Of a DNA stretch of 64,000 nucleotides, positions 1,977 through 36,269 are shown piece after piece (within the stretch, counting starts at the first letter, position 1; each line of letters opens with the position of its first letter). A program made the translations under genes and the position numbers. The notes under the pieces were generated by a model, which saw only the letters and a program-made list of their open reading frames with translations, did not search any database and had not been told where the DNA came from. Source of the DNA: an uncultured Gammaproteobacteria bacterium (GTDB lineage Bacteria > Patescibacteriota > Patescibacteriia > Magasanikbacterales > UBA922); the NCBI GenBank assembly GCA_964435035.1, contig CAYSXR010000001.1, forward strand, positions 212,622-276,621, read 5' to 3'.

Positions 1977-4900
1977 ATGAATGATGTAATTAAATTCGGC
2001 AAGAAGCTCTTTTCAGCTTCTGTAGTTGGAGTAACAATCGCTTGGAGCATGGGCCTTGCAGCCTTCGTTCCAGTAGCTGCTCAAGCTGCAACCTGTCCAG
2101 AACTCGAAGCCGGAGATTTGTTTAAAGCGACCGGTGCCTCAGCTGTATATTATCTTACCGCTGGCATGGAACGCGCATACTTCCCACATGTGGACGTATT
2201 CAACAGTTGGAACCTTAGTTTCAACGATGTAGTAACCGTATCTGGTGAATGTCTTTTTGCTTATCCAGCAGCAACCGTAGCCGGTATCAACTACCGACCT
2301 GGTTCACGATTGGTGAAGCTCTCAGATGCATCACCTGTATTCGCTGTTACCCCTGGTAACAAGCTCGTACAAGTTACGGGAGAATCAGCTGCAGCTCTCT
2401 ATGGAACAAACTGGACATCAGTTTTACGTGATGTTAGTCCATTCCACTGGGCAAGTTACACTGACACTCGAACCACCTGGAGCGAATCAAAGCCTCATGA
2501 TGGTCAGTTTGTAAAGAAGACTGGCGAAACAACTGTATACTTTGTAAAAGAAGGCAAACTCCATCAGGTTGATGGATCAAGTGTGCCTGACGTTCGCACA
2601 GTATCAGCTGCAACATTTGCAGCTCTTCCAATGGGAACGGGTTCAGTAACCGTAAGTTCTGCATACGCTAACCCAACTCAGGTTGATGGTAGCGCACCAG
2701 CGCCTACGACTGGAGCTCTCACGGTAAGTGTGGCTTCAAATACTTCAGCTTCAAAAGTTGTTCCAGGTGGAGCACAAGGAGTTGAGTATCTTGCTTTCAC
2801 CGTTCGAGCTGGCTCTTCAGCTGGTACCCTTGAACAGGTTACCTTGAAGCGCGCTGGAATCGGAAGTCGAAATGACTTTAGCAAAGTATACCTCTATCAC
2901 AATGGTATTCGCCTTGACAACGGTCGTTCACTTAGTACTGATGATGAAGTTACCTTCAATGTTAACAAATCTATTGCAGCAAACTCAACTGAAACATTTT
3001 GGGTAAAGGCTGACATGGACACATTGGTTGGTGATAGCACAGATGCAACTTCTGGAGATCAGAACTACTTTGAAATCAGAACTGCGTCTGATGTGAAAGC
3101 TACTGGTTCAGTAGGTGGATCATTCCCAGTTCGTGGTAATTCAATTTCGATTGGTGCACAAGATATTAGTACCATTACATTGCTTGGACAGGGTACTGGT
3201 TCTACTGCAAAAATCGGTGAAAATGGTGTAGTAGTAAGTGAATTTGATGCTACTGCTGCATCTACCGATGATGTAGAATTAACTTCTATCACTTTGAAGC
3301 AAAGAGGAACCGCTCCTGCAACTGTTCTCACTAATGTGAAATTGATGCAGGGTGGAACCACTGTTGCTATGGGTGTAGTAAGTGGAGACTGGGTAAAATT
3401 TGATTTCACCCAGAAAGTTACGATCGAAGCTGGCGACACCAAGAGATTCAAGGTGTATGCTGACCTCGGAATTGCTGACACTTCAGACACTATCGAACTC
3501 GTACTTGACGAGGCAGCTGATGTGATGGCATACAGTACTGATTTCCCAGGAAGTCTTGCTGGAGTAACTAATACGTACACCACCACACAGTCACTCTCAG
3601 TGACAATTGAAGGTGGAAAGATCAATGTTGATCTTGAAGGAACCAATGAAGATGTACGTGTAGACCAGAACGATGTGGTATTCGGTACATTCTCTGTTCT
3701 TGCAACTGCTGAAGATATTGACGTAGACGAAATGAAATTCGTTGTTATGCGTTCAAACTCAGCTGTATGTCTTGAAGATCTCCGCTTGCGCGACAAGAAC
3801 GGCAAAGGAAGTTACTCTCTTGACTACGATGCAACGTGTTCTACAGGAACTGATAATGCTACTACCACTGCAGAAAACATGATTCTTACCAAGGGAGTTA
3901 CCTATGAATTCGAAATCGTGGGTGATATTGCAAGTACTGCGGTAGATGCAGATGCATATTACGTTACATGGGCAGCTGCTAATGTAACTGCAGATGGTGT
4001 TTCTTCTGACAACACGGTTTCAGCAAATGACTTCTCATCAGCGTCCCTCACCGGTCCTACGATGACAGTTAGCCCTTCAAAACTCACTATTCGTCAGAGT
4101 GCTCTCAGTAACGAGACTGTAGTAAACGGAACCAAGAGTGTTCTTGTATACCGTGGTACTCTCGAAGCTGGAGCAACTTCTGATGTTACGGTGACTTCTC
4201 TTACTGTTGCTGCTACCTCTACCGCTCAAACTTGGGATGGTGTAGTTGATGGTTTGAAACTCTTCATCGACGGTGTACAGGTGTCAAATGACAATACTGT
4301 AACCAGCGAAGAAGCTCTCTTCACCAGCTTCAGTAAAGTTGTAAAAGCAGGATCATCAAACAAAGTAACCTTCGAAGTGTATGCTGACTTGACCGACGGC
4401 TCTACTGTCGAGATGGTACAGCTACAAGTAGAAGATGCTGACGCTACTGACGAGGATGACGACACTGTCACTGCAGTTAGCGCAACTAACGCTACTGTTT
4501 CTGATTCAAACCCAGTTGTAGGAAGTCGTATCCTTACCATTTCTGGTACTGGTACTCTTACTGCAGTATTGGATTCAAACTACACAGGTCTTCGCAATGA
4601 CTTCTACGCAATTGCAGGCACACAGAAACAGCTTGCAGGACGCGTACAGCTCAAAGCACTCTACGAAGATGTAGAGCTTGAGGATCTTGTAGTAACCGTA
4701 AGTTCATCATGGTCAAACACTTCAACTGTTGAAGCGACCTTTGACACATTGAACGTCTATTCAGACGCGGCAATGACTGACCTTCTCGGTACTGCTGACG
4801 TAACTCGTGGAACCGTGACTATCGAAAATGTAAACTTCGTTGTACCTGCTGACACTACCAAGTATCTTTATCTTGGTCTCAACCTCAACAGTGTTGGAAC

Positions 4901-5603
4901 TGGTGACAATGGAACCGCTACACCAAGTACTTCGATCTTCTTGGCCCTCTTGGATGCTGGAACTACAGCTCAGGGTGTATCATCAAATGATGATGTTGAC
5001 CCAACTGTAACTGAAACCGTTGGTAACGATATTATCGTTGCTGGTTCGACTGTATCGAATCTTGCTACCAGTTTTGCAGGTGGAAACCTTGCAGGTGGTG
5101 AACAAGTATTCTTTACCTTCGCAGTTACTGCTAACTCTGGTGTAAACACTGACAACAGTGGAGATGCCCTTGATCTTTACTTGACTCAGTTGAAACTATC
5201 ACTCTCAAGTGATGTAACGAGTGTTACAAGCACAAAACTTTGTCGTGTAAGTACTGGTAACTGTGTAAACATTTATCAGACCACTCCTATCACTTCAAGT
5301 ACAAACAACACAACCTTCTACACTCCAGGTGAATCAGGATACGTTGACGTAACTGAATTTACCAACAGTGATGATGAACGTGTTGACAATGGACAGACTG
5401 CACTCTATGAGCTCCGTGGTACATTCTCAGGAGTTACAGATAAGTATGCACAAGGAAGTATCCAGGACGTTAACGCTGGTGGTATCGTATGGGGCTATGA
5501 CCTCGGCGATGACGGCGTTCTCGACTATGTACATGCAAACTTGTTGCAATTGGAACCTCGATCATCTGGATACCCAGATATCACAGGTGCAGCATTGAAC
5601 TAA
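1977..5603 (+). CDS. Large secreted surface protein (1208 aa), Ser/Thr/Val/Ala-rich with repeated beta-rich modules; S-layer/adhesin-like
   Basis: N-terminal signal peptide (KKLFSASVVGVTIAWSMGLAAFVPVAAQAATCP). Composition is strongly T/S/V/A/G/D-biased with few charged residues. A long 377-bp leader precedes it and a strong terminator follows. Confidence 0.6.
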   Translation: MNDVIKFGKKLFSASVVGVTIAWSMGLAAFVPVAAQAATCPELEAGDLFKATGASAVYYLTAGMERAYFPHVDVFNSWNLSFNDVVTVSGECLFAYPAATVAGINYRPGSRLVKLSDASPVFAVTPGNKLVQVTGESAAALYGTNWTSVLRDVSPFHWASYTDTRTTWSESKPHDGQFVKKTGETTVYFVKEGKLHQVDGSSVPDVRTVSAATFAALPMGTGSVTVSSAYANPTQVDGSAPAPTTGALTVSVASNTSASKVVPGGAQGVEYLAFTVRAGSSAGTLEQVTLKRAGIGSRNDFSKVYLYHNGIRLDNGRSLSTDDEVTFNVNKSIAANSTETFWVKADMDTLVGDSTDATSGDQNYFEIRTASDVKATGSVGGSFPVRGNSISIGAQDISTITLLGQGTGSTAKIGENGVVVSEFDATAASTDDVELTSITLKQRGTAPATVLTNVKLMQGGTTVAMGVVSGDWVKFDFTQKVTIEAGDTKRFKVYADLGIADTSDTIELVLDEAADVMAYSTDFPGSLAGVTNTYTTTQSLSVTIEGGKINVDLEGTNEDVRVDQNDVVFGTFSVLATAEDIDVDEMKFVVMRSNSAVCLEDLRLRDKNGKGSYSLDYDATCSTGTDNATTTAENMILTKGVTYEFEIVGDIASTAVDADAYYVTWAAANVTADGVSSDNTVSANDFSSASLTGPTMTVSPSKLTIRQSALSNETVVNGTKSVLVYRGTLEAGATSDVTVTSLTVAATSTAQTWDGVVDGLKLFIDGVQVSNDNTVTSEEALFTSFSKVVKAGSSNKVTFEVYADLTDGSTVEMVQLQVEDADATDEDDDTVTAVSATNATVSDSNPVVGSRILTISGTGTLTAVLDSNYTGLRNDFYAIAGTQKQLAGRVQLKALYEDVELEDLVVTVSSSWSNTSTVEATFDTLNVYSDAAMTDLLGTADVTRGTVTIENVNFVVPADTTKYLYLGLNLNSVGTGDNGTATPSTSIFLALLDAGTTAQGVSSNDDVDPTVTETVGNDIIVAGSTVSNLATSFAGGNLAGGEQVFFTFAVTANSGVNTDNSGDALDLYLTQLKLSLSSDVTSVTSTKLCRVSTGNCVNIYQTTPITSSTNNTTFYTPGESGYVDVTEFTNSDDERVDNGQTALYELRGTFSGVTDKYAQGSIQDVNAGGIVWGYDLGDDGVLDYVHANLLQLEPRSSGYPDITGAALN

Positions 5604-5648
5604 CCTTAGTTCAATCGATCCATATTCTGTAGTAATACAGAAAAAACA

Positions 5649-5682
5649 CCCCGCCCTTCGAGAAGGGCGGGGTTGTTTTTTG
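5649..5682 (+). terminator. Rho-independent terminator after the surface-protein gene
   Basis: Perfect 10-bp GC-rich stem CCCCGCCCTT / AAGGGCGGGG with a 4-nt loop, followed by TTGTTTTTT. Confidence 0.85.
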
Positions 5683-5783: not shown

Positions 5784-7880
5784 ATGGTTACGAAAATCAG
5801 AAAGTTAGTCCCATATCTTGTTGCAGCAACTTTTGTAGTACCCCTGATTCTCCTCAATAACTATATTTTCCCTTTTATTGTTCCTAAGATAGTTTTTTTT
5901 AGATCGCTAGTGCTCGTCATTGCGGGTTGTTATGCACTTTTGTTGGTTTCAAATTTTTCAAAATATCGACCACGTCTTTCATTTCTCACCATAAGTATTC
6001 TATTATTCTGGCTGAGTTTTGCGATCTCTACGTTTACAGGCGTCGATTGGTATCGTAGTTTTTGGGATAATCATGAGCGAATGCTTGGGTTGTTCACCAT
6101 TACTCACTACACCATATTATATCTCGTTGCGTCTTCGGTTCTTGAATCAGATCGTGAGTGGAATACGGTGTTTCGCTCAGCGCTTATTCTTGGATCTCTC
6201 GTGATGCTTATCGGCGTATGGCAGAAGTTTGTGAATCCACAGGCCCTTCTCAATAACGGTTCATGGCGTGTATCTGCAACATTAGGTAATTCTATTTATT
6301 ATAGTGGATACGGACTCTTTTTGATGTTTTTGGGTGGGCTACAATTTTTCAGGGAACAGAGTAAGAATTGGAAATATATTGCTCTCAGTGTAGGGTTGTT
6401 AGGTTTTTTGGGTATATTTTTTGGAGGAACGAGAGGTACAATTCTTGGAATGCTTGCGGGTTTTGTTACACTGGCGTTTTGTTATATTGTATTAGAGAAA
6501 GAAAAAAGTAAAACACGAAGCATAATTACATACCTTGCAGCGGCAGGAGTCGTCGTTTTTGCTCTATTGTTCATGTTTAGGCAAACGGCATTTGTCTCAG
6601 AAATTCCTGGGTTGGGACGACTTCTAAACACGTCATTTTCACTCAATTCGACTGAGAGTACTCGTCCAATGGCGTGGAGCACTGCGGTTGATGCATGGAA
6701 GGAAAAACCATTATTTGGGTGGGGACCTAATAATTTCTATTATGCGTTCAACGAGCACTACAACCCTCAATTTTTGAAATTTGGGTGGAATGAAACCTGG
6801 TTTGATAACGCACATAGTGTTATTTTTAACACGCTCACGGTCCAGGGAATTGTAGGTATTGCGACGTATCTACTCATCTATATCGCTGCCTGTACGCTTA
6901 TTTTAGTAGGTGTGCGAAGGGGTATAATCAGGAGTCAGGTGGGATATATTTCTGCATCATTTTTAGTGGCACATTTTGTAGGATTGGTGACGGTATTTGA
7001 AAATCCAACGTCCTATCTGTACTTTTTTGTCTTTGTAGCTTTTGTAGCTTTTTCTACCCGCGGTGTCGCATTGCGTAAAAAAAAGGATGTTGAAGAAAAA
7101 GAAGAAGCTGTAGTAGTGAAAAAAAATAGTATCACCGAACATGGTGCGAAAGTTTCCGCAGGTCTCGTGGTGACCGTCGGTGTCGTAGTTTTTTTGTTGG
7201 TGTATATTACTGATATTGCTCCTGCGCGAGCAAACAAGGCAACTATTGCAGCCATTCAAAAAATTTATGCAGGAACTGCAGATGAGAAGTTGTATGATGA
7301 TGCGTTGGAGTTTTCAAGTCCTCACATCGATGATATTAGAAATGATATTTCGCGTACAGTATTAGGTGTGTTGCCACAGTTGGTACAGCAGGGGAAGGGT
7401 GAACAGGCACTCATATTGTTTAATGAAACTGTTGAAGAATTGAAGAAGAATCAATTGCTCCATCCACTTGATGTACGTGTGTATTTTGTACTTTCACAAC
7501 TGTATGAATTTGGCTATCAAGCTACACAGAATACAGAGTTTTTGGCTCAAAGTGAGAATTCTCTTCGTCAGGCTGTGTATTTTTCTCCCAAGCGGCAGCA
7601 ATTCCTCTATGCTCTTTCTCAAAATTTGATCCAACAGGGTAAATTGTCTGAAGCAGAGGATATATTGAAAAGATCAATTAACGATTTTGAAAATATCGGT
7701 GAAGGATGGGTACGACTTGCCCTGATTTATGCGGCACAAAATAAAACAACAGAAGCAAGAGAAACTGCAGAAAAAGTGTTAGAATGGTTTGATAATCCAA
7801 CTTCTTCAGTTTATCAATTGAACCTCGACTGGAAACCAGTATTGGAGCAAATAAGAGGGGTAACGTCGACGAGTAACTAA
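5784..7880 (+). CDS. O-antigen ligase family (Wzy_C domain) polytopic membrane protein with C-terminal TPR repeats
   Basis: About 12 TM helices. The Wzy_C hallmark WFDNAHSVIFNTLTVQGIVGIATYLLIY (AHN..L..G..G) is present. The C-terminal about 250 aa contain TPR-like helical repeats (LALIYAAQNKTTEARETAEKVLE). Confidence 0.6.
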   Translation: MVTKIRKLVPYLVAATFVVPLILLNNYIFPFIVPKIVFFRSLVLVIAGCYALLLVSNFSKYRPRLSFLTISILLFWLSFAISTFTGVDWYRSFWDNHERMLGLFTITHYTILYLVASSVLESDREWNTVFRSALILGSLVMLIGVWQKFVNPQALLNNGSWRVSATLGNSIYYSGYGLFLMFLGGLQFFREQSKNWKYIALSVGLLGFLGIFFGGTRGTILGMLAGFVTLAFCYIVLEKEKSKTRSIITYLAAAGVVVFALLFMFRQTAFVSEIPGLGRLLNTSFSLNSTESTRPMAWSTAVDAWKEKPLFGWGPNNFYYAFNEHYNPQFLKFGWNETWFDNAHSVIFNTLTVQGIVGIATYLLIYIAACTLILVGVRRGIIRSQVGYISASFLVAHFVGLVTVFENPTSYLYFFVFVAFVAFSTRGVALRKKKDVEEKEEAVVVKKNSITEHGAKVSAGLVVTVGVVVFLLVYITDIAPARANKATIAAIQKIYAGTADEKLYDDALEFSSPHIDDIRNDISRTVLGVLPQLVQQGKGEQALILFNETVEELKKNQLLHPLDVRVYFVLSQLYEFGYQATQNTEFLAQSENSLRQAVYFSPKRQQFLYALSQNLIQQGKLSEAEDILKRSINDFENIGEGWVRLALIYAAQNKTTEARETAEKVLEWFDNPTSSVYQLNLDWKPVLEQIRGVTSTSN

Positions 7881-7902: not shown

Positions 7903-8691
7903 ATGAAAACAGTAATTTTATGTGGCGGAACAGGAACGCGCATGAAAGAAGAAACAGAGTTCAAGCCTAAGCCGCTTGTGTTGGTTGGGGGTAAGCCGAT
8001 TTTGTGGCATATCATGAAAATTTATGCACATTATGGCTATAATGAATTCATTCTTGCATTGGGGTACAAGGGTGATATGATCAAACAGCACTTTCTCAAT
8101 TGGAGAACGTTACTCAATGATTTTACGCTTGATACCAAAAATCATGAATTCACCTTCCATAATAATGAATGTGATGACTTTAAAATTACCTTTGCAGAAA
8201 CTGGTCCAGATAGTTTGACTGGTGAGCGTGTACGGAGAATTAGAAAATATATCGGAGATGATCCAGAGTTCATGGTAACGTATGGTGATGGTGTTGCTGA
8301 TATTAATATTGCCGAACTCCTTGATTTCCACAAAAAACAAAACACGCCCGTAACAATTACTGGTGTTCGTCCTACGCATCGATTTGGACTCCTTGATATC
8401 GATCACACGTCAGAAAAAATTAAGGGTTTTTATCAGAAACACGTGACCAACGACACTGATAAAATTTCGAGTGATTATATTAATGGAGGATTTATGGTCT
8501 TGAACTCAAATGTCTTTGATCAGATTGAAGAAAATTCAATGATTGAGTCAATTTTTGAACCACTAGCTCGTAAAGATCAATTGTCAGTGTATAGACATAA
8601 GGGAATGTGGAAATGCATGGATACCTATAAAGAAGTTGAAGAATTAAATAAACAGTGGCACGCCGATCCTTTTTGGAAAGTGTGGGCATAA
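7903..8691 (+). CDS. rfbF: Glucose-1-phosphate cytidylyltransferase
   Basis: The N-terminus MKTVILCGGTGTRMKEETEFKPKPLVLVGGKPILWHIMKIYAHYGYNEF matches the RfbF/DdhA nucleotidyltransferase signature (GGxGTR, KPKP, ILWHIMK). Length is 262 aa. Confidence 0.85.
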   Translation: MKTVILCGGTGTRMKEETEFKPKPLVLVGGKPILWHIMKIYAHYGYNEFILALGYKGDMIKQHFLNWRTLLNDFTLDTKNHEFTFHNNECDDFKITFAETGPDSLTGERVRRIRKYIGDDPEFMVTYGDGVADINIAELLDFHKKQNTPVTITGVRPTHRFGLLDIDHTSEKIKGFYQKHVTNDTDKISSDYINGGFMVLNSNVFDQIEENSMIESIFEPLARKDQLSVYRHKGMWKCMDTYKEVEELNKQWHADPFWKVWA

Positions 8692-8706
8692 GTAGGTCTT
8701 AAAACT

Positions 8707-28865: not shown

Positions 28866-30167
28866 ATGAATGCAAACCTCGCATATGCTGGCGGACAGCG
28901 TAATATGGTTACGTTTGCAAAATATCTGCACAAGGATATGTTTTCAGTGACGGTATGTGCATATCACGGTGGAGGACCACTTGAGAGTGTTATTACATCG
29001 TTAGGAATTCCTTGTGTTGTTGCTGACGGTGATGTAGAAAAAATAGTTAGTATTATCAAGGAAAAAAATATTGATATTATCCATATCCATCGGTCAGGCG
29101 GGTATGTTGCAATTGAGACAAAAATATTACAAAGAGCAAAAGAGATCAATCCGAATATTATAATTATTGAAAAAAATGTGTTTGGTAAATTTGATCCAAC
29201 CGTTGACAGTATTATTGATTGCTCGCTCTTCCAGAGCATGATGCATATTCATGAGCGATATATACCAAAATCACATAAAGAATTTAATTTTGAAAAACAA
29301 AAGGTTTTGTATAACATGGTCGACCGGGAGGAGTTCGAGAGTTATCGAGTTTCAAAAGAGGAGATACAAAACTATCGAGAAAAAATTGGGGTTAAATCGG
29401 GTGAATATGTTATTGGTAAAATTGCTCGTCCAGCACTCGAAAAATGGAGTGATTTGTTAATTGATATGGTGCCTTATCTTGCGCGTGAGCTACAAGATTT
29501 TAAAGTAGTAATTATAGGGTGTCCTCCATCTCGGATACAAAGAATTAACAAAAGTCGGTATAAAAAATTCTTTATTCTACTTCCTGAAACAAGTGATCAG
29601 AAAGAAATTCATTTATTTTATCAATCCATTGATGTACTTGCACATAGTTCAAAAATTGGTGAATGTAATGGAAACACGATCAATGAAGCAATGTTTTGGA
29701 AAAAGCCCGTTCTTGTTAACTCTACCCCACGCAAAGATAATGGGCAGCTCGAGCAAGTAATTCATATGCAGAATGGAATTATTGCGAATACTCCTATGAC
29801 GTTTGCGCGTGCATTAGCATATCTCGGAACAAATGATGATGAGAGTAAGAAGATGGGTGAAGCTGGGTATGCACAAATACGGGCAGTGTATGATCCGGTA
29901 GTCGTAACCAAAAGGTTGGAAAAATTGTTTTTTGAAAAAATAGGTGCTAAAGATTTTTTAGCACCTGAAGAATATGTAAATATTGAATATTATCCAACTG
30001 AGCAGGAAATCAGAGACTACAAACAAGAATACAATATTCGTCTACAATGGGAATTTGGGAAACTTTCTACAGGAGATCGATTGCACCTCGTAGTATCTCT
30101 TCCGAGAAAATTTTATTTCAAAGTAAGGGATTTTGTTGAACATAAATGGAAATCATATGCAAAATAA
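28866..30167 (+). CDS. GT4-family (GT-B) glycosyltransferase
   Basis: GT-B architecture with a C-terminal EX7E-like region (GECNGNTINEAMFWKKPVLV). The start is chosen at the ATG at 28866. The listed ORF start at 28827 is also possible. Confidence 0.55.
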   Translation: MNANLAYAGGQRNMVTFAKYLHKDMFSVTVCAYHGGGPLESVITSLGIPCVVADGDVEKIVSIIKEKNIDIIHIHRSGGYVAIETKILQRAKEINPNIIIIEKNVFGKFDPTVDSIIDCSLFQSMMHIHERYIPKSHKEFNFEKQKVLYNMVDREEFESYRVSKEEIQNYREKIGVKSGEYVIGKIARPALEKWSDLLIDMVPYLARELQDFKVVIIGCPPSRIQRINKSRYKKFFILLPETSDQKEIHLFYQSIDVLAHSSKIGECNGNTINEAMFWKKPVLVNSTPRKDNGQLEQVIHMQNGIIANTPMTFARALAYLGTNDDESKKMGEAGYAQIRAVYDPVVVTKRLEKLFFEKIGAKDFLAPEEYVNIEYYPTEQEIRDYKQEYNIRLQWEFGKLSTGDRLHLVVSLPRKFYFKVRDFVEHKWKSYAK

Positions 30168-30975
30168 AAAAATTTCAGCGTGCTTAGTTGTGTATCATGA
30201 AGAGAAAGTTATTGAAAGATGTCTCAAAAGCATTCAAGGTTTGGTAGATGAGGTTATTGTCGTGCATGATGGACCGTGTACAGATCAAACAATTGAGATT
30301 GCTAAAAAGTATACTGATAAAATATTTATACGCGATCATGTGGGTATCATGGAAGCGCACTTAGTATTTGCATTTGAACAAGCACAAGGGGAATGGATCT
30401 TCCGAATTGATGCAGATGAATATGTAGATACTGCAGATTTTCAGAAAATTAAGGATAGAATTGAAGATAAAGAAGTAGACGCATTGATATTGAAATGGGA
30501 ATTGTGGAATGGGAAAAAGGTAATCACTTTTCCAGGATTACAAAAAATGTGCCTGGTTAGACGAGAGCATTTTCATTACCGCGGAATTCCACATGAAAAT
30601 GGATCAGTTGATGGAAGAATAGAAAAGCTCGATATTTTTCTCCATCATAGACCAGTATACAATAATATTGCATGGAAAAATTTCATGAGAAAAACCAGAC
30701 AGTGGGTACCTGTTCATGCGAGTTACTTTTTCCCTGAAGAAAGAAGTTTTTCATGTTTTAATGCAACACCTGACGCATGGCTCCAGCATACAGAAAAAGT
30801 AAGGAGATATATATGGTATTACGTGCTTATTGAGCCTATAAAGATGTCTTTGGGGCAGCTGAAAAATGGTTTATGGAGGAGTAGGTATGGGTGGCAGGTG
30901 GTATTGGAGAGGTCAGTCTATTATGGTATGCTGTACGGGCAAATTAAGAGACGAATGAATTCAAAAAAAGCCTAA
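30157..30975 (+). CDS. GT2 glycosyltransferase
   Basis: CLVVYHEEKVIERCLKSI...VVHDGPCTDQT and an IDADEY (DxD) motif are present. ATG at 30157. Confidence 0.6.
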   Translation: MQNKKISACLVVYHEEKVIERCLKSIQGLVDEVIVVHDGPCTDQTIEIAKKYTDKIFIRDHVGIMEAHLVFAFEQAQGEWIFRIDADEYVDTADFQKIKDRIEDKEVDALILKWELWNGKKVITFPGLQKMCLVRREHFHYRGIPHENGSVDGRIEKLDIFLHHRPVYNNIAWKNFMRKTRQWVPVHASYFFPEERSFSCFNATPDAWLQHTEKVRRYIWYYVLIEPIKMSLGQLKNGLWRSRYGWQVVLERSVYYGMLYGQIKRRMNSKKA

Positions 30976-30977
30976 AT

Positions 30978-32144
30978 ATGGATAAACATAGCACTCGGAT
31001 AGCCCTTGTTAGAGGAAACGGCATGAATTCGTGGGAGGGGATGATGTGGAATGATATGGGTGACCAGTTCACGGTCACTGGTTTTTGTTCACAAAAAAAC
31101 CTATTTCCTGTTGATGATCTTACATTTCCTATAGTTCGTCTCAAAACTAACACAGATATACCCGTGTACAATAAAATTTCTCTCCTTTTGTCGGGTGTAT
31201 TTCAGAAGATGTATGGACTTGAATCAGAGTTAAAAAATTATGCGATTGCGCATACCGTTGAATTGTATAATTATTATACCTATCAGGCCGTTCTAGCAAA
31301 GAAGATTCATAGAAATCTCAAAGTCGTGACGACTGTGTGGGATAACAGTTTTGGGCGTTTTGAGTATGAATACGCACTGTCTATGCGTCCGCCTGCATTT
31401 TGGAGAAAAAAGATGCAAAAAATTATTGATACAAATATTCAAGGTGTTGATAGATTTGTTGCGGTTAGTGAATATAGTAAAGAATTGCTCAAAGATTATG
31501 GAGTACCTGAAGAAAAAATAAGAGTAGTAATTCCTGGTCTGGTAGATATATCTGAAGAGAAAACATCATTAATCGAAAAATATAATCTAGCTGGTACGCA
31601 GTTTTTTCTCATGGTGAATAGACTAAAAAAAGAGAAAGGTGTGTATGATGTGCTCTATGCATGGAAAATGTATGTAAAGAATACTATACAGGAAAATCCA
31701 CTGCTCGTGATAGTTGGCGATGGTCCTGAGCGGGATAGTATGCTCAGGCTCATAAAAGAATGGGGGATCGAGAAAACAGTACGCTATATCAGACAATTAC
31801 CAAATCAAGAAATTCGAAATCTATATCATGATGCACGTGCCTTGATTTTGGGAAGTATTCCGACACCGTTGTGGCAAGAACAATTTGGATACGTGCTTGC
31901 TGAAGCATTGTCTTGTGGATGCCCAGTAATATCTACCTTGTCTGGTTCGATTCCCGAGGTAGTGAATGATGCTGGAATTTTGTGCCCTCCAGGCAGTCCG
32001 GTAGCTCTCGTAGAAGCAATGAGAAAATTGGAGGATCCATCAGTTATGACAGACTATCGACGCAAAGCGGCGCAATCAAAAGTGCGATTTGCACAAAGTC
32101 GTTTTCAAAAAGAAATGAGTGATATCTATTCTGAATTAGTATGA
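30978..32144 (+). CDS. GT4-family glycosyltransferase
   Basis: C-terminal [29 protein letters not shown] motif (EX7E region) of retaining GT-B enzymes. Confidence 0.7.
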
Positions 32145-32836
32145 AAGTTTCGATTGTGATCCCGGTGTATAATGAAAAAAAAACCATTGAAGCACTTCTC
32201 TCAAAAGTAGCATCTGTTGTAGTACCTGGCTGGGAGAAAGAAATAATTGTAGTTGAGGATTGTTCAGTTGATGGAACCAATGAAATTCTCAAAAGATTGG
32301 ATGCTAGCCTATATCGGGTTATTTTTCATACTGAAAATCAGGGTAAAGGAGGTGCGTTGCATACAGGCTTTGCAGCAGCGACAGGGGATTATATTTTGGT
32401 ACAAGATGCAGACCTTGAATATGATCCAGAAGAATATCAGAAATTACTAGAGCCAGTTACTAAGTATGGTGCAGATGTGGTATATGGATCACGATTTATG
32501 GGAGGTGGGGCGCATCGGGTGGTATATTTTTGGCATTACGTGGGCAATAGATTTTTGACGTTGTTGTCGAATATGTTTACAAATCTGAATCTCACAGACA
32601 TGGAAACGTGCTATAAATTATTTAGACGAGACATATTACAAAAAATAACACTTGAGCAAAAACGTTTTGGGTTTGATCCAGAAGTAACTGCAAAAGTAGC
32701 CCGAATAAAGCCGATCAAAATATTTGAGGTAGGTATATCATACAACGGAAGAACATATGCTGAAGGAAAAAAAATCACCTGGAAAGACGGGTTTAGAGTA
32801 ATATATTGTATTATCAAATATGGATTATTTAAGTAA
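32141..32836 (+). CDS. GT2 polyprenyl-phosphate sugar synthase (Dpm1-like)
   Basis: [14 protein letters not shown]...[10 protein letters not shown] and [13 protein letters not shown] are typical of DPM1/GtrB-type GT2 enzymes. Length is 231 aa. Confidence 0.7.
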
Positions 32837-34016
32837 TTTATTTAGGAATTCAAATAAAGTAGTAGTTTTATTTTTTTTAGTGGTTTTGAATTTAATTGTA
32901 TTTAGTAGCATTTTTGGTTTCCATGCAACAAGTGACACTGATAGCTTTGTCCTTGCAATTGATTTTTTTAAAGGAAGTGGCGACATCATTTACCCAAATC
33001 GCTATCTGAATCCTTTCTACCCAGTAGTTGCTTCCACACTACTTCCTTTTTTGTCAGCGGCACAGAGTATCGTAGTCATAAATATATTTTTTTATTTTGG
33101 AATTGTATTTCTTACCTACGGACTTGTACGTAGAGTTTTCAAAAACAATGTTACGGGATTTATTGCTGCGCTAATGATTATGACCGCGTATCCCATGCTT
33201 CGATATGGACTATTGCAGGTTCAGGACATTGGAGGTTATTTCTGGTTTCTCGCTACGATCTATACCTCGTGGAGATGGTATGAAGACAAGGATTGGAGAT
33301 GGCTTGCATTGGGGAGTATCTCGGTTGCGTTTGGTGTCTTGACCAAAGAGAGCGGATGTATGGGCGCATTATTTACCGGGCTTTTGATTCTTGGTACTCG
33401 TGGTTTTTCATGGAAAAAGAAAGTAATGCTCATTGTAGGTTTTGCCTTGCTCCCACTTATCACTATTATCATTAATGCCGTAAGAGGAAATGATGTTGGG
33501 TATAGTTCAGCACAATGGTTTATTGATAATTGGCATGTGTACGCACCTGGAAATTACACGATAGTAAAATGGCTCGGAGTAAACCTTACGACATATAACA
33601 TGTTGTGGATTTTTATTGCGTATGGTTCTTATATCCTAATAAAAAATCGAAAGACGCTTGATCCGCAAATCATGAAGTATTTATTATTCATGATTCCCTC
33701 AAGCGCGTCATACTTTGCGTGGCCCATGTTTATCGGAAGAACTGTTCTTATTTCAGCTTGGTTTTTTATTCCAGTAGCAGCTTTTGCACTATCCTATATC
33801 ATAAGCCGTGGAGGGAAGTATCGATTGCTAGGTATTGGATTAGTGATCGTATGTGTTATTACACCGTATATTTTGCAATATATTATCGCCTATGCGCCAC
33901 TATTTTCTATTTTGGAAATTTGTCATTACAATCCGGTTTGTAGTGTTCAGTATTTTGTAGAGCATTGGTATGAATTTAGTCGAACTGGTGTCTATTCAGC
34001 TCCATTGGTGAATTAA
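32820..34016 (+). CDS. Polytopic membrane protein, putative GT-C-type glycosyltransferase
   Basis: About 11 TM helices with Trp/Tyr-rich loops. It lies between two Dpm1-like GT2 genes. Confidence 0.4.
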
Positions 34017-34021
34017 TGTAT

Positions 34022-34714
34022 ATGCTGCACGTATCACTTATTATCCCTACATATAATGAAGCAAAAAATCTACCCTTATTGGTCAAAGAAGTTTTTGATG
34101 CTATAGATCGGTCACAGATTGATTTGGAGCTTATTATTGTTGATGATAATTCTCCTGATGGTACGGGCGCTGTTGCTGAAGAATTGGGTAAGGCCTACCC
34201 GGTAAGAACTGTACATCGGTCAGGGAAATTGGGTTTAGGAAGCGCAGTTCGTGCAGGATTTGATGAGTCGAAGCGTGACTACCTGGGAGTTATGGATGCT
34301 GATTTGAGTCATGATCCGAGTGTGCTCAATTTTATGATTATGTCTTTGACTGAGTATGATATTGTACTCGGAAGCAGATTTGAAAAGGGGAGTGTTGTGG
34401 AACAATGGAAATGGTGGCGCGCATTGATTTCAAAAGTGGGGGTTGCATTGACCTATGTATTAACAGGAGTCCGGGATCCTTTGAGCGGGTATTTCTTTTT
34501 ACGTAGATCGGTAATTAATAACACTACTCTCGATACTACGGGATATAAAATATTACTTGAAATTCTTATTAAGGGGTCATATAAAAAAGTTAAGGAAGTA
34601 CCCTTTAGATTTCGAATCAGAAAATTCAGTACATCAAAACTTGATGGTAAGGAGCATTTGCTATTTTTAAAACAAGTTATCGCGTATACTTGGTATAAGA
34701 TTTGTAAAAAATAA
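34022..34714 (+). CDS. GT2 polyprenyl-phosphate mannose/glucose synthase (Dpm1-like)
   Basis: VSLIIPTYNEAKNL...IIVDDNSPDGT and VMDADLSHDP motifs. Confidence 0.7.
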   Translation: MLHVSLIIPTYNEAKNLPLLVKEVFDAIDRSQIDLELIIVDDNSPDGTGAVAEELGKAYPVRTVHRSGKLGLGSAVRAGFDESKRDYLGVMDADLSHDPSVLNFMIMSLTEYDIVLGSRFEKGSVVEQWKWWRALISKVGVALTYVLTGVRDPLSGYFFLRRSVINNTTLDTTGYKILLEILIKGSYKKVKEVPFRFRIRKFSTSKLDGKEHLLFLKQVIAYTWYKICKK

Positions 34715-34715: not shown

Positions 34716-36269
34716 ATGTTGGTACGCATTAAAAACTGGATAAAAAACAACTTACCGCTAGTTCTCATACTTAGTTTATCTATATTTTTATTGTTATTTA
34801 GAATAAATTATCGGACATTCTGGATGGATGAAACCATGATCTTGAATTATTTCCATCAAGGAATTTTTGAGTTTATTGCCGAATATATACGGTTTCCAGA
34901 TAATCATCCCCCTTTGTACTATTTTTTGGCTCTGATGGTGAGTAAAGTGTTACCATGGTCAGAATTGACCGTGAGGCTTATCTCAATACTCTCTGGCTTC
35001 GGTATCGTATTACTCACATATCGGTTCACCTATCGCGTTACGAATGCCAAAAAGACGGCACTACTTACAGCTTTTTTTACTGCATTCTCTTCATACTTTA
35101 TTTTGATTTCACAGATGGCTCGATACCATAGCTTTGCAGGGCTAAGCGCATTATTAGCAATGTATTACTTCTATCGTTTATATGTAGAAGGGTATGAAAA
35201 GAAATTGTGGGTCTATTATCTGGGTGCGCTTATATTAACAGGATATGTTGACTATCCTCATTTTATTTATGCAGTGCTTATTACGAATGCGTTTATTCTA
35301 TATCGCACAATTCGTACACAAGCAATTGTCACCTTTAAAAATTGGTTTCTTGGAAATCTGTTAGTTGCTGTAGCGTGCACACCACTTGCTTGGATGCTCT
35401 ATCATAGGATTTTTATTCAAGGAGATGGTGGATGGGAAAATGTAAATTTACTAGGTAATTCACTGGTAAATATCTTCGCTGGTATTTTGTTCCATATATA
35501 TGTATTTTTCTTTGGAGAAAATATATTTCCGTGGAACTATGTTATTTTTACCATAGGATGTCTGGCACTCGGGGGAATGCTTGTGGGGTTAGTTAAACTT
35601 ATACAAAAACGACAGGTTAGTCGTCCTGGGATATTCGTTGTCATGTTGTTTCTAGTTAGTATTATGGTAAACACGGTATTCATGAACGTCATGAATCCTA
35701 GATACAATTTTACCGTATATCCAAAATTTGGTTTTGTAGCCTATGCATTAGGTGTTATGGTTTTTGTATTGTGTATCTCAAGTGTAACATCAAAAAAAAT
35801 ACAAAATACTTTGTTTATAGCATGGTTGTTGGTTGCTTCTGCAGGATTGTATCATTTTTATACAGCGAATAATTATCTTAATCCAAGCTATTTCCGTACG
35901 TTTGAATCTTTTGAATATGTACGTGACGCATCTCAAGAGGGGGATTATCTTGCAATTACCCCTGATGCGAGTGAAGGATTGTATCTTTTTTATAAAGAGA
36001 GTTATCTAGAAAACGTGACTCCTTTAGATTGGAAAAATTTTCAATCATCAACCATGCTAGTGTCATCTCGTGTATGGTTCTTCTCAACCGGAGAAGATGG
36101 TGAGGGAGAAAGTGTAACTACTGAAAAAAAAGTTCCCGAAGGGTATAAAATTATTGAGCGTTTTGATAGTGTACCGCTTGATCCAGTGTTCAAAGAACTA
36201 AAAGAGAAATTTTTACATAGACCAAGTTATACATATAAATATACCGTATTTTTACTTGAAAAAATATGA
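34716..36269 (+). CDS. GT-C glycosyltransferase of the PMT/ArnT (GT39/GT83) type
   Basis: The N-terminus LLLFRINYRTFWMDETMILNYF...DNHPPLYYFLALMV resembles the first-loop DE motif region of PMT/ArnT enzymes. About 12 TM helices are followed by a C-terminal soluble domain. Confidence 0.55.
   Translation: MLVRIKNWIKNNLPLVLILSLSIFLLLFRINYRTFWMDETMILNYFHQGIFEFIAEYIRFPDNHPPLYYFLALMVSKVLPWSELTVRLISILSGFGIVLLTYRFTYRVTNAKKTALLTAFFTAFSSYFILISQMARYHSFAGLSALLAMYYFYRLYVEGYEKKLWVYYLGALILTGYVDYPHFIYAVLITNAFILYRTIRTQAIVTFKNWFLGNLLVAVACTPLAWMLYHRIFIQGDGGWENVNLLGNSLVNIFAGILFHIYVFFFGENIFPWNYVIFTIGCLALGGMLVGLVKLIQKRQVSRPGIFVVMLFLVSIMVNTVFMNVMNPRYNFTVYPKFGFVAYALGVMVFVLCISSVTSKKIQNTLFIAWLLVASAGLYHFYTANNYLNPSYFRTFESFEYVRDASQEGDYLAITPDASEGLYLFYKESYLENVTPLDWKNFQSSTMLVSSRVWFFSTGEDGEGESVTTEKKVPEGYKIIERFDSVPLDPVFKELKEKFLHRPSYTYKYTVFLLEKI

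What the first reader, a model, noticed from the sequence alone, without database searches (positions are those of the whole stretch)
1977..36269. Dpm1-like GT2 plus PMT/ArnT-like GT-C pairs next to a giant Ser/Thr-rich secreted protein, a candidate protein O-glycosylation system
There are two consecutive pairs of a polyprenyl-phosphate sugar synthase (32141 and 34022) followed by a GT-C membrane transferase (32820 and 34716). The second GT-C is PMT/ArnT-like with a DE-containing first loop. This is the logic of extracytoplasmic lipid-linked sugar transfer, as in actinobacterial Ppm1/Pmt protein O-mannosylation or ArnC/ArnT. The 1208-aa secreted protein at the head of the locus is extremely Thr/Ser-rich with long STT/TST tracts, an obvious acceptor. 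The ECF sigma/anti-sigma pair just upstream could couple envelope stress to its expression.
Basis: inference. Interest (0 to 1): 0.6.

Follow-up and report, generated by a model that had tools for sequence, protein, structure and literature searches.

The report
Surface-protein glycan locus of CPR bacterium

Summary
Two TM-less GT2 enzymes resemble archaeal dolichol-phosphate-mannose synthase (32141, 34016). Each is followed by a GT-C membrane transferase (32820, 34716). In about 30 of 92 relatives the second pair is one fused protein, so synthase and transferase work together.

Two claims fail. The 1208-aa protein has 22% Ser+Thr, spread evenly, and no pure S/T run longer than 4 residues. The link between that protein and the GT-C pairs is not conserved.

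Across 28 Magasanikbacteria species the constant neighbours of the 1208-aa protein are an ECF sigma, an anti-sigma-like protein and a downstream Wzy_C+TPR enzyme with a WaaL fold (22 of 23 loci). GT-C genes appear in 0 of 23 within about 7 kb downstream. The pairs sit in a syntenic module of about 19 kb that has its own priming transferase. In 18 other contigs that module has no such protein nearby.

The 1208-aa protein looks like an S-layer protein: distant homologues carry SLH domains in place of its N-terminal domain.

Best reading: an slg-like S-layer glycosylation locus with a WsaB/WsfB-type O-oligosaccharyltransferase. The GT-C pairs probably add single sugars to a glycan outside the membrane. 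Direct PMT-like glycosylation of protein is not excluded. This is a new member of known kinds, in a phylum whose glycobiology is unexplored.

The parts
2..364 (+). C-terminal part of an ECF-type sigma factor, cut by the window start
   Evidence: Frame +2 translation ends ...RVTLHRALKILKK. It is 95% identical to the L001/L009 gene that carries Sigma70_r2 and Sigma70_r4_2. It lies upstream of the surface-protein gene in nearly all 28 species.
367..1599 (+). Anti-sigma-like single-pass membrane protein of 410 aa, with an extracytoplasmic coiled region and a Ser/Thr-rich tail
   Evidence: One TM at residues 87-105. No Pfam hit here, but the ortholog in L086 hits DUF5667. It holds the only poly-S/T tract in the window (64% in 25 aa), which is conserved in close orthologs. 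It is syntenic in nearly all loci.
1600..1976 (+). Conserved structured leader upstream of the surface-protein gene
   Evidence: An invariant TGCCATACAGT pairs with an upstream ACnGTrTGGC, with G-U/A-U alternation. A second stem near the RBS shows compensatory changes across 12 species. No Rfam family matches.
1977..5603 (+). S-layer-type surface protein, 1208 aa: signal peptide (res 1-37), N-terminal three-repeat anchor-like domain (res 38-235), beta-rich body (res ~266-1149)
   Evidence: About 125 homologues of 1100-1500 aa, those with a source name being Magasanikbacteria/Patescibacteria. The N-terminus is the most conserved part. Distant homologues keep the body (26% id, E 1e-44) but carry SLH or PG_binding_1 domains at the N-terminus. 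The N-terminal domain recurs in 2932 cluster representatives of very different lengths. No Pfam or PDB match.
5648..5673 (+). Intrinsic terminator after the surface-protein gene
   Evidence: 11-bp stem with 8 G-C pairs, followed by a T run.
5784..7880 (+). Wzy_C (WaaL-fold) membrane enzyme with an extra 13th TM and a C-terminal TPR domain; candidate O-oligosaccharyltransferase or ligase
   Evidence: PF04932 E 1e-17 plus TPR families. AF2 pLDDT 84.8. Best PDB match is WaaL 7tpg_B, TMt 0.67. Invariant R217/R294/H344 are spaced like WaaL R215/R288/H338 (PMC3643930). It lies downstream of the surface-protein gene in 22 of 23 species.
7903..25149 (+). Strain-variable glycan block: CDP-hexose genes (7903, 8707), split transketolase (9614, 10474), epimerases, GtrB/PgfS-like GT2 with 2 TM (12272), acyltransferase_3 (13234), DegT aminotransferase (16554), 755-aa membrane protein (17861), Wzx flippase (20133), GT2s and methyltransferases
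   Evidence: Pfam and NCBIfam hits. The content differs even from the 86%-identical relative and from other species.
25089..26972 (+). 627-aa polytopic membrane protein of unknown family; patchily associated with the conserved module (candidate polymerase or further transferase)
   Evidence: About 12 TM. No Pfam or NCBIfam hit. No relation to the GT-C profile. A homolog lies upstream of AsnB in L071 and a 631-aa protein without Pfam hits sits in the same position in L084; absent in L083.
26902..32144 (+). Start of the conserved module: AsnB-like amidotransferase (26902), GT4 (28827), GT2 (30133), GT4 (30978)
   Evidence: Pfam hits. Syntenic in many metagenomic contigs.
32141..32836 (+). TM-less Dpm1/DPMS-like polyprenyl-phosphate sugar synthase 1
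   Evidence: PF00535 E 2.5e-38. 5mlz E 2e-23 over residues 1-226. DAD motif read directly from the sequence. No TM.
32820..34016 (+). GT-C transferase 1 (398 aa, PMT_2)
   Evidence: PF13231 31.3 bits. Weakly related to the GTC517 family over the core (hhalign E 5e-4). Invariant H35, D39, T40 just after TM1 in 10 homologues.
34016..34714 (+). TM-less Dpm1/DPMS-like polyprenyl-phosphate sugar synthase 2
   Evidence: 5mlz E 6.5e-52, 180 bits. 73% identical to the N-terminal domain of the fused GT2+GT-C protein P0131.
34716..36269 (+). GT-C transferase 2 (517 aa, PMT_2) with a C-terminal alpha/beta soluble domain
   Evidence: PF13231 30.3 bits; PF02366 21.5 bits, below the 22.7 cut-off. AF2 pLDDT 89.9. 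GT-C fold. Invariant D38 E39. No solved sequence relative, even with a profile.
36266..45526 (.). Rest of the conserved module: methyltransferase (36266), GT2 with TMs (37065), GT4 (38081, minus strand), methyltransferase (39316), GT2 (39886), UXS-like decarboxylase (40718), UDP-glucose dehydrogenase (41680), epimerase (43105), priming phosphoglycosyltransferase Bac_transf (44102-45526, minus strand)
   Evidence: Pfam hits. Largely the same genes, in mostly the same order, in L039-L071, L007, L008, L083 and L084.

Best explanation
The region is a composite cell-surface glycoconjugate locus of a Magasanikbacteria (CPR/Patescibacteria) genome. It has four layers.

1. An ECF sigma and an anti-sigma-like pair precede a separately terminated gene, with a conserved structured leader, for the cell's S-layer-type protein. 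That protein has a signal peptide, a modular wall-anchoring N-terminal domain and a large beta-rich body.
2. Immediately downstream is a WaaL-fold Wzy_C enzyme. Its extra 13th TM helix places a TPR domain outside the membrane. This enzyme is the conserved partner of the surface protein. It most likely transfers a polyprenyl-diphosphate-linked glycan en bloc to hydroxyl residues of that protein, as WsaB/WsfB do in Gram-positive S-layer glycosylation (slg) loci. This step is inferred.
3. A strain-variable block (CDP-sugar modification, Wzx flippase, GT2s, methyltransferases) supplies and flips the glycan unit. The enzyme families are shown. The pathway order is inferred.
4. A module conserved across Patescibacteria (about 26.9-45.5 kb) has its own priming phosphoglycosyltransferase. 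In it, two TM-less DPMS-like GT2 enzymes charge polyprenyl phosphate with single sugars on the cytoplasmic face, and two GT-C enzymes transfer those sugars on the outer face. The coupling is shown by fusions. The sugar and the acceptor are unknown. The most likely acceptor is the lipid-linked or polymerised glycan built by the same module (side-branch or extension, as in Gtr, GacI/GacL or AglD/AglS), not the 1208-aa protein directly.
For: Surface protein as an S-layer type:
- It belongs to a length-conserved family.
- The N-terminus is conserved and the body is variable.
- The N-terminal anchor is swapped for SLH or PG_binding_1 in distant homologues.
- The anchor domain is reused in 2932 protein clusters.
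- The gene has its own terminator.

Wzy_C+TPR as the partner:
- It lies downstream in 22 of 23 species, while the glycan genes next to it vary.
- It has a WaaL fold.
- An invariant R/R/H triad has WaaL/PglL spacing.
- The topology places the TPR domain outside the membrane.
- Literature: WsaB/WsfB have Wzy_C. WsfB and PglL have a C-terminal TPR. WsaA is a separate TPR protein upstream of wsaB (PMC2943079). The same split and fused forms occur here.
- pglL homologues usually sit next to their targets (PMC3643930).

GT2/GT-C coupling: fusions and recurrent adjacency.

Module independent of the surface protein:
- 0 of 18 module contigs have the surface protein or Wzy_C within 10 kb.
- 0 of 23 surface-protein loci have a GT-C within about 7 kb.
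- Contig-length fingerprints overlap only for the three closest relatives.
- The GT-Cs co-travel with the PGT, cytoplasmic GTs, methyltransferases and UGD/UXS.
Against: - Nothing here shows that any protein is glycosylated.
- Wzy_C proteins also include O-antigen ligases and some polymerases. The PglL_A motif (PF15864) was not detected.
- The acceptor of a GT-C cannot be read from sequence or fold. The YfhO family modifies teichoic acids in Bacillus and Listeria but Ser/Thr-rich protein regions in streptococci (PMC12041528).
- In the window's own sub-clade the module is contiguous with the surface-protein locus, 25-28 kb downstream. A functional link is therefore not excluded.
- The flanks fetched reach only about 7 kb beyond the surface-protein gene.
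- Whole-genome co-occurrence was judged only indirectly, from contig lengths.
- S-layer identity rests on architecture, not on lattice or abundance data.
Confidence: 0.5

Rival explanations
1. The two GT-C enzymes are PMT/PgtC2-like protein O-glycosyltransferases. They move single sugars from polyprenyl-phosphate donors directly onto Ser/Thr of secreted proteins. Targets would be the 1208-aa protein or, more plausibly, Ser/Thr-rich disordered regions such as the tail of the anti-sigma-like protein.
For: - DPMS-like synthases are tightly coupled to the GT-Cs.
- D38-E39 in loop 1 are invariant.
- There is a marginal PF02366 hit, and NCBI names homologues 'glycosyltransferase family 39'.
- PMT structures are among the fold matches.
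- Experimental precedent exists outside Actinobacteria: GtrB/PgtC2 and PgfS/PgfM1 glycosylate Ser/Thr-rich regions of membrane proteins (PMC12041528).
- A conserved poly-S/T tail lies next door in the 410-aa protein.
- CPR are not expected to have lipid A, which would remove the ArnT-type acceptor (general knowledge, not tested here).
Against: - The 1208-aa protein has no S/T tracts.
- The GT-Cs are not conserved with it.
- They are embedded, in mostly the same order, in a module with a priming PGT, five or more cytoplasmic GTs, methyltransferases and sugar-nucleotide enzymes. A stand-alone protein mannosylation system does not need these.
- PF02366 is below threshold, there is no PMT_4TMC, and there is no sequence link to any solved PMT.
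Confidence: 0.2
2. No protein glycosylation at all. The whole locus builds a wall-linked or membrane-anchored polysaccharide (a secondary cell wall polymer, teichoic-like polymer or lipoglycan). Wzy_C+TPR would be its polymerase, or a ligase to a non-protein acceptor. The surface-protein gene would lie alongside because that polymer is what its N-terminal domain binds.
For: - The N-terminal domain behaves like a reusable wall-binding module. It occupies the position of the SLH domains, which bind secondary cell wall polymers (general knowledge).
- The GT-C module is conserved across Patescibacteria, as a housekeeping envelope polymer would be.
- The locus has a Wzx, a PGT and many GTs.
- The Pfam Wzy_C family also contains ligases and polymerases.
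Against: - Wzy_C+TPR stays 40-95% identical while the adjacent glycan genes change completely between species. This is the pattern of a ligase or OTase tied to its acceptor, not of a repeat-unit-specific polymerase.
- An extracytoplasmic TPR domain suggests a protein partner.
- No LCP-type wall ligase is in the window; only a LytR_C-only protein is present.
- The module is often far from any Wzy_C gene.
Confidence: 0.25
3. The juxtaposition is incidental. Envelope genes simply cluster in a small genome, and the surface protein, Wzy_C+TPR and the GT-C module act in unrelated pathways.
For: The module and the surface-protein unit occur apart in most genomes sampled. A terminator separates the surface-protein gene from what follows.
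Against: Adjacency of the surface protein and Wzy_C+TPR in 22 of 23 loci, across surface-protein identities down to 25-30%, is far beyond chance.
Confidence: 0.05

Closest known systems
S-layer glycosylation (slg) loci of Geobacillus stearothermophilus NRS 2004/3a and Paenibacillus alvei (WsaB/WsfB O-oligosaccharyltransferases; PMC2943079)
   Same: An S-layer-type gene lies next to a glycan gene cluster. The candidate transferase has a Wzy_C domain. The TPR is either fused (WsfB, the window) or a separate small protein upstream (WsaA; L002, L004, L086). The locus also has an asparagine-synthase homologue (wsfA versus 26902), a priming Bac_transf enzyme, methyltransferases and strain-variable glycan genes.
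   Different: The phylum is CPR. The surface-protein family and its anchor domain have no Pfam model. Export is by Wzx rather than the ABC transporter of G. stearothermophilus. A conserved ECF sigma and anti-sigma pair lies upstream. Two lipid-P-sugar/GT-C pairs are added. No biochemical evidence exists.
Actinobacterial Ppm1/Pmt protein O-mannosylation (GT2 polyprenyl-P-mannose synthase + GT39)
   Same: A DPMS-like synthase without its own membrane anchor (as for the Ppm1 catalytic domain) feeds a GT-C that has an acidic motif in loop 1.
   Different: The GT-Cs fail the GT39 sequence criteria (PF02366 below cut-off, no PMT_4TMC, no profile link to solved PMTs). The genes sit inside a PGT-primed glycan module. 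In many relatives the synthase is fused to the GT-C itself.
Three-component extracytoplasmic glycan modification (GtrA/GtrB/GtrC; GacI-L; CsbB/YfhO; GT136 system, PMC11127046) and streptococcal GtrB/PgtC2 and PgfS/PgfM1 protein glycosylation (PMC12041528)
   Same: A lipid-monophosphate sugar is made inside and used outside by a GT-C. The genes are embedded in polysaccharide loci. The window also has a true GtrB/PgfS-like GT2 with two TMs (12272).
   Different: The synthases of the two pairs lack the GtrB C-terminal TMs. No GtrA- or MATE-type flippase is evident. The GT-Cs belong to PMT_2, not to the YfhO or GtrC families.
ArnC/ArnT and RgtE/RgtA-D lipid A/core modification (GT83 / PMT_2)
   Same: The PMT_2 Pfam family. 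ArnT is among the best fold matches. UDP-glucose dehydrogenase, a decarboxylase and an epimerase are in the same module, as in the Arn and Rgt pathways.
   Different: CPR are not expected to have a lipid A acceptor (general knowledge, not tested here). There is no sequence-level relation to ArnT. The synthases are closer to DPMS than to ArnC (180 versus 46 bits).
Haloferax volcanii AglD/AglS: final mannose added from Dol-P-Man to the S-layer glycoprotein's glycan outside the cell (AglS papers located but not read; AglD/AglS roles from general knowledge)
   Same: A Dpm1-like synthase plus a GT-C decorates a glycan destined for an S-layer protein. NCBIfam's best, sub-threshold match for both GT2s is the Agl-type DolP-hexose synthase AglJ.
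   Different: The Haloferax system is an archaeal N-glycosylation pathway that uses AglB. Here the candidate transferase is Wzy_C-type and O-linked.

Membership tests
GT39 protein O-mannosyltransferase (PMT/Pmt) | Pfam PMT (PF02366) at or above the gathering score | tested here: not met
   34716 scores 21.5 bits against a cut-off of 22.7. 32820 has no hit, even at E<=10.
GT39 protein O-mannosyltransferase (PMT/Pmt) | C-terminal four-TM PMT_4TMC module (MIR domain in eukaryotes) | tested here: not met
   No PF16192 or MIR hit at E<=10. The C-terminus of 34716 is a soluble alpha/beta domain.
GT39 protein O-mannosyltransferase (PMT/Pmt) | Asp-Glu motif in the first extracytoplasmic loop | tested here: met
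   D38-E39 are invariant in 47 homologues of 34716. 32820 has only an invariant D39.
GT39 protein O-mannosyltransferase (PMT/Pmt) | Detectable sequence relationship to characterised or solved PMTs | tested here: not met
   phmmer and a 47-sequence profile find no PDB chain, including Pmt1/2/4. Foldseek places Pmt4 at rank 8 with E 2e-4, behind ALG9/12, ArnT, AglB and PglB.
GT39 protein O-mannosyltransferase (PMT/Pmt) | Protein Ser/Thr as acceptor | not testable with these tools
   Needs glycoproteomics or in vitro transfer assays.
GT83 ArnT-type lipid A transferase | Sequence relationship to ArnT, and a lipid A acceptor in the organism | tested here: not met
   No sequence hit to 5ezm/5f15; similarity is at fold level only (TM 0.44-0.51). 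Absence of LPS in CPR is general knowledge and was not tested here.
PMT_2 / RgtA-D-like GT-C (PF13231) | Pfam PF13231 above the gathering score, plus a GT-C fold | tested here: met
   31.3 and 30.3 bits against 26.1. GT-C fold for 34716. The fold of 32820 was not modelled.
Polyprenyl/dolichyl-phosphate hexose synthase (Dpm1/DPMS/Ppm1-like GT2) | GT-A GT2 domain with a DxD motif, and full-length similarity to a DPMS catalytic domain including its interface helices | tested here: met
   PF00535. 5mlz aligned over residues 4-222 (E 6.5e-52) and 1-226 (E 2e-23). DAD motifs read from the sequence. The identity of the sugar is not testable.
GtrB/ArnC-type synthase of three-component systems | C-terminal pair of TM helices; a GtrA-like flippase gene nearby | tested here: not met
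   32141 and 34016 have no TM. Only 12272 has the GtrB architecture (2 TM; PgfS 194.7 bits). No unassigned non-overlapping ORF of 100 aa or more lies between 5.8 and 45.5 kb; smaller ORFs were not scanned.
Wzy_C O-oligosaccharyltransferase (WsaB/WsfB/PglL/PilO type) | Wzy_C domain on a WaaL-like 12-TM fold, with a periplasmic loop bearing the R/R/H catalytic residues | tested here: met
   PF04932 E 1e-17. WaaL 7tpg_B TMt 0.67. Invariant R217, R294, H344 are spaced like WaaL R215/R288/H338. Equivalence is by spacing, not by structural superposition.
Wzy_C O-oligosaccharyltransferase (WsaB/WsfB/PglL/PilO type) | C-terminal or adjacent TPR module | tested here: met
   TPR families at residues ~580-675. 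Separate TPR genes are present in L002, L004 and L086. Literature.
Wzy_C O-oligosaccharyltransferase (WsaB/WsfB/PglL/PilO type) | PglL-specific motif PglL_A (PF15864) | tested here: not met
   No hit at E<=10. PilO also lacks this motif, so this excludes the PglL subfamily, not OTase function.
Wzy_C O-oligosaccharyltransferase (WsaB/WsfB/PglL/PilO type) | Gene adjacent to its target protein; transfer of a Und-PP-glycan to protein | tested here: inconclusive
   Adjacency is met (22 of 23 loci). Transfer activity is not testable here.
Bacterial S-layer protein | Secreted, with a wall-anchoring module plus a large self-assembling body; anchor modules exchangeable among homologues | tested here: met
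   Signal peptide read from the sequence. The body is shared with SLH-bearing proteins. The anchor domain is modular.
Bacterial S-layer protein | Forms a 2-D lattice; is among the most abundant cell proteins | not testable with these tools
   Needs cryo-ET or proteomics.

The most novel reading that the evidence does not exclude
The conserved Patescibacteria module may make a phylum-typical wall glycopolymer. That polymer would be the ligand of the un-named three-repeat N-terminal domain found on about 2900 surface-protein clusters, giving a CPR counterpart of the SLH/secondary-cell-wall-polymer anchoring system. In the same reading, the natural DPMS-like-GT2/GT-C fusion proteins would be self-contained enzymes that make a lipid-phosphate sugar on one face of the membrane and spend it on the other. 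That would bear on the unresolved question of how such lipids are flipped.
Probability: 0.12. Interest if true: 0.7.

Novelty: new member of a known kind. Interest (0 to 1): 0.5.

Why it matters
CPR/Patescibacteria are a large share of bacterial diversity, and they live attached to other cells. Their envelope biology is almost unknown. A recent Saccharibacteria paper calls their glycosylation processes 'unexplored' (PMC11623550).

If this reading holds, it names three things for one CPR lineage: a candidate S-layer protein family, the enzyme that glycosylates it, and a strain-variable glycan locus likely to shape host and phage recognition. It also points to a conserved envelope-glycan module and a reusable surface-anchoring domain across the phylum. 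All of these can be tested by glycoproteomics and by E. coli reconstitution.

The enzymology itself is of known kinds.

Tried and rejected
- Sequence searches of both GT-Cs against PDB chains, singly and with a 47-sequence profile, found nothing.
- Foldseek confirmed the GT-C fold but could not separate PMT, ArnT, OST and ALG families.
- The full-length surface-protein alignment was too divergent for a locus scan. I used the N-terminal domain instead.
- The 1360-aa protein near the GT-C module in L008 is unrelated to the surface protein.
- The 755-aa and 627-aa membrane proteins have no Pfam, NCBIfam or profile relation to the GT-C family and remain unassigned.
- The PglL_A motif was not found.
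- Literature searches found no paper on CPR S-layer proteins, CPR protein O-mannosyltransferases or GT2-GT-C fusions.
- I considered Wzy_C+TPR as the repeat-unit polymerase. I judged this less likely because it stays conserved while the neighbouring glycan genes change.
- I considered ArnT-like lipid A modification. I set it aside because CPR are not expected to have lipid A (general knowledge) and there is no sequence link to ArnT.

Full report
**What the window is.** The first 55.5 kb have about 37% GC. Every protein with a named homologue points to Candidatus Magasanikbacteria, in the CPR/Patescibacteria. Genes run almost entirely on the + strand and are tightly packed.

**Check of the observation: the enzyme pairs.**
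- ORFs 32141-32836 and 34016-34714 are GT2 enzymes of 231 and 232 aa (PF00535, E 2.5e-38 and 2.5e-28). I predict no TM helix in either.
- The best solved relative of both is the Pyrococcus dolichol-phosphate-mannose synthase 5mlz. It aligns over the whole catalytic domain (E 2e-23 and 6.5e-52). ArnC and GtrB-like structures score much lower.
- Each GT2 is followed by a polytopic protein that passes the Pfam PMT_2 threshold: 32820-34016 (398 aa) and 34716-36269 (517 aa).
- An AlphaFold model of the 517-aa protein, built on 47 homologues, is confident (pLDDT 89.9) and has a GT-C fold. D38-E39 in the first loop are invariant. The 398-aa protein has an invariant H35/D39/T40 in the same position.

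**The pairing is functional, not chance.** About 30 of 92 homologues of the 517-aa protein are single polypeptides of about 740 aa that carry PF00535, in most cases together with PMT_2 or PMT. The N-terminal part of one of them is 73% identical to 34016 over its full length.

**Check of the observation: the surface protein.** The description is only partly right.
- ORF 1977-5603 (1208 aa) has a Sec-type signal peptide. It is rich in Thr and Ser (22.4%, against 7-13% in the nine enzymes and membrane proteins compared).
- The enrichment is uniform. The longest pure S/T run is four residues and the richest 25-residue window is 44%. There are no long STT/TST tracts.
- The only such tract in the window is in the extracytoplasmic tail of the 410-aa protein at 367-1599 (64% S/T in 25 residues). 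It is conserved in close orthologs.
- The upstream ECF sigma is real but cut by the window edge. Its ortholog has Sigma70_r2/r4_2. An ortholog of the 410-aa protein hits DUF5667.
- A strong terminator follows the 1208-aa gene (5648-5673).

**What the 1208-aa protein is.**
- It belongs to a family of about 125 proteins, nearly all of 1100-1500 aa; those that carry a source name are Magasanikbacteria or Patescibacteria.
- Residues 1-235 are the most conserved part and the rest is variable.
- Distant homologues share the roughly 950-residue body (26% identity over 947 columns, E 1e-44). At the N-terminus they carry one to three SLH domains, or a PG_binding_1 domain, instead. This is the anchor-plus-body architecture of S-layer proteins, with anchor swapping.
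- The N-terminal domain (three repeats of about 60 aa; no Pfam match even at E<=10) matches 2932 cluster representatives. These proteins range from 195 to 2178 aa. The domain usually comes straight after a signal peptide and is sometimes C-terminal. That is how a reusable wall-binding module behaves.
- I therefore call the protein an S-layer-type surface protein. Lattice formation and abundance are untested.

**Conserved neighbours of the surface protein.**
- A scan of one genome per species with the N-terminal domain returned 28 Magasanikbacteria loci.
- By tblastn with all window proteins, the sigma and the anti-sigma-like gene precede the surface-protein gene in nearly every locus.
- A homologue of window ORF 5784-7880 follows it in 22 of the 23 loci that have enough downstream sequence.
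- Neither GT-C appears in any of the 23, within the roughly 7 kb covered.
- The genes beyond the 5784 homologue differ from species to species. They differ even from the relative whose surface protein is 86% identical. There the split transketolase pair is replaced by an acetaldehyde-dehydrogenase, aldolase and TPP-enzyme set.

**What ORF 5784-7880 is.**
- It has a Wzy_C domain (E 1e-17) and C-terminal TPR repeats.
- Its model (pLDDT 84.8) matches the WaaL O-antigen ligase best (7tpg_B, TM 0.67 on the target).
- It has twelve helices with the large loop between helices 9 and 10, as in WaaL. A Lys/Glu-rich linker and a 13th helix follow. By the positive-inside rule this puts the TPR domain outside the membrane (inference).
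- R217, R294 and H344 are invariant in 45 homologues. They are spaced like the catalytic R215/R288/H338 of E. coli WaaL and R224/R298/H349 of PglL (PMC3643930).
- The S-layer glycosylation literature describes this kind of enzyme. WsaB and WsfB carry Wzy_C. WsfB and PglL have a C-terminal TPR. WsaA is a separate TPR protein just upstream of wsaB (PMC2943079).
- Both arrangements occur here: fused in the window, and split into a 230-240-aa TPR protein plus one or two Wzy_C genes in L002, L004 and L086.
- pglL homologues lie next to their target genes in 21 of 31 cases.
- The enzyme stays 40-95% identical while the adjacent glycan genes change. A ligase or oligosaccharyltransferase tied to its acceptor fits this better than a repeat-unit-specific polymerase does.
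- The PglL_A motif is absent, so it is not a member of the PglL subfamily.

**Where the GT2/GT-C pairs belong.**
- A metagenome scan with the 517-aa family gave 46 loci.
- In the 18 loci of at least 9 kb, largely the same genes recur in mostly the same order: AsnB-like, GT4, GT2, GT4, DPMS-like GT2, GT-C (398), DPMS-like GT2, GT-C (517), methyltransferase, GT2, GT4 (minus strand), methyltransferase, GT2, UXS-like, UDP-glucose dehydrogenase, epimerase and a priming Bac_transf phosphoglycosyltransferase (minus strand). Individual contigs lack or rearrange some members. Searches show the same module.
- This corresponds to window positions ~26.9-45.5 kb.
- None of the 18 loci has a homologue of the surface protein or of Wzy_C+TPR within 10 kb.
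- Large contigs with the surface protein (597 kb, 744 kb, 618 kb, 687 kb and a 1.23-Mb chromosome) contribute no member to the GT-C hit list. Large contigs with the GT-C (0.51-0.96 Mb) contribute none to the surface-protein list. This is indirect, because it is judged from contig lengths and an index-limited search.
- Only in the window's own sub-clade are the two on one contig, 25-28 kb apart. One of those relatives lacks the first pair.

**Classification of the GT-Cs.**
- Both pass PMT_2. This Pfam family also covers ArnT-like and RgtA-D-like lipid A/core transferases (general knowledge).
- The 517-aa protein misses the PMT threshold (21.5 against 22.7 bits). Neither has PMT_4TMC.
- Neither the single sequences nor the family profile match any solved GT-C by sequence.
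- Foldseek ranks ALG9/ALG12, ArnT, AglB, PglB, Pmt4 and the OSTs within two orders of magnitude (E 2e-5 to 1e-3, TM 0.4-0.6, at most 16% identity).
- They are GT-C enzymes of the PMT_2 group and cannot be assigned to GT39 or GT83.
- The acceptor cannot be inferred from family. YfhO-type GT-Cs glycosylate teichoic acids in Bacillus and Listeria, but Ser/Thr-rich protein regions in streptococci (PMC12041528).

**Most likely mechanism.**
- Shown: the enzyme families, the synthase-transferase coupling, the two separate conservation units, and the architecture of the surface protein and of the Wzy_C+TPR enzyme.
- Inferred: the surface protein is exported and O-glycosylated en bloc by the Wzy_C+TPR enzyme. 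The donor is a polyprenyl-diphosphate-linked glycan made by the variable block and flipped by Wzx (20133).
- Also inferred: the two DPMS-like enzymes load single sugars on polyprenyl phosphate, and the two GT-Cs add them outside the membrane to the glycan assembled by the conserved module. This resembles Gtr-type or GacI/GacL-type decoration (PMC11127046) or AglD/AglS on the Haloferax S-layer glycan.
- The sugars are unknown. The second synthase is close enough to DPMS to suggest mannose. However, the module also makes UDP-GlcA and probably UDP-Xyl or UDP-GalA.
- Whether the module's product ends up on the surface protein, on the wall, or on a lipid is open.

**Novelty and interest.** Each component is of a known kind: an slg-type locus, a WsfB-like transferase, and a lipid-P-sugar/GT-C pair. 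What is new is the phylum, the un-modelled surface-protein family and anchor domain, and the frequent synthase/GT-C fusions. I found no paper on CPR S-layer proteins or CPR protein glycosylation enzymes. One Saccharibacteria study calls the field unexplored. I rate it a new member of known kinds, interest 0.5.

Noticed in passing
window 55571-64000: A tRNA gene (55571-55642) is followed at once by a block of 63-70% GC, against 37% for the rest of the window. The block carries a large serine recombinase (55633-57369, minus strand), an IstB/IS21 ATPase (60086-60829) and a Replic_Relax protein (61866-62801). It is either an integrative element from a high-GC donor inserted at the tRNA or a chimeric assembly join.
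   Followed up: partly
window 1600-1976; A5 (L009-L031): The leader upstream of the surface-protein gene is conserved and structured. An invariant 11-mer, TGCCATACAGT, pairs with an upstream ACnGTrTGGC across a variable insert (GU:7, AU:5 at one pair). A second stem beside the RBS shows compensatory changes (CG:6, UA:5, AU:1). No Rfam family matches. It may be an mRNA-stabilising or regulatory 5' UTR.
   Followed up: partly
window 2088-2681 (residues 38-235 of the 1208-aa protein): This three-repeat domain has no Pfam model. It matches 2932 protein clusters (925 at E<=1e-10) of 195-2178 aa, mostly straight after a signal peptide and sometimes at the C-terminus. It behaves like an uncharacterised Patescibacteria cell-wall-anchoring module.
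   Followed up: partly
P0128, P0131-P0139, P0172-P0176, P0189-P0205; L007 10001-12202: Natural single-polypeptide fusions of the DPMS-like GT2 with the GT-C (about 720-750 aa). The protein that makes the lipid-linked sugar inside is the one that uses it outside. I found no description of this architecture in the literature searched.
   Followed up: partly
window 14433-15900: A patch of about 50% GC lies inside the 37% GC glycan cluster. It holds a HAD hydrolase on the minus strand (14433-15047) and a NUDIX ORF (15179-15808) that overlaps an equally long antisense ORF. A lower-GC NUDIX paralog follows directly (15927-16550).
   Followed up: no
window 9614-11397 versus L001 17710-21416: The window and a relative (surface protein 86% identical, flanking genes 91-95%) differ in the sugar-modifying cassette after the CDP-glucose 4,6-dehydratase-like gene. 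The window has a split transketolase pair. The relative has an acetaldehyde dehydrogenase, an HMGL-like aldolase and a TPP enzyme. This suggests strain-level switching of a branched or modified sugar.
   Followed up: no
window 367-1599 and orthologs in L009-L034: The anti-sigma-like protein ends in a Ser/Thr-rich, probably disordered extracytoplasmic tail (56-76% S/T in 25 residues in the close clade). This is the kind of region that GT-C systems glycosylate in streptococci.
   Followed up: partly
window 17861-20128 and 25089-26972: Two large polytopic membrane proteins (755 and 627 aa, each with a soluble C-terminal domain of 160-220 aa) have no Pfam, NCBIfam or profile relation to the GT-C family. 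They are candidate polymerases or new transferases within the glycan locus.
   Followed up: partly
L004 13794-18732; L086 5134-10028: Other Magasanikbacteria carry two tandem Wzy_C paralogs plus a separate small TPR protein after the surface-protein gene. The Wzy_C+TPR family (more than 620 hits) is much larger than the surface-protein family (about 125). This suggests several ligase-like enzymes per genome.
   Followed up: no
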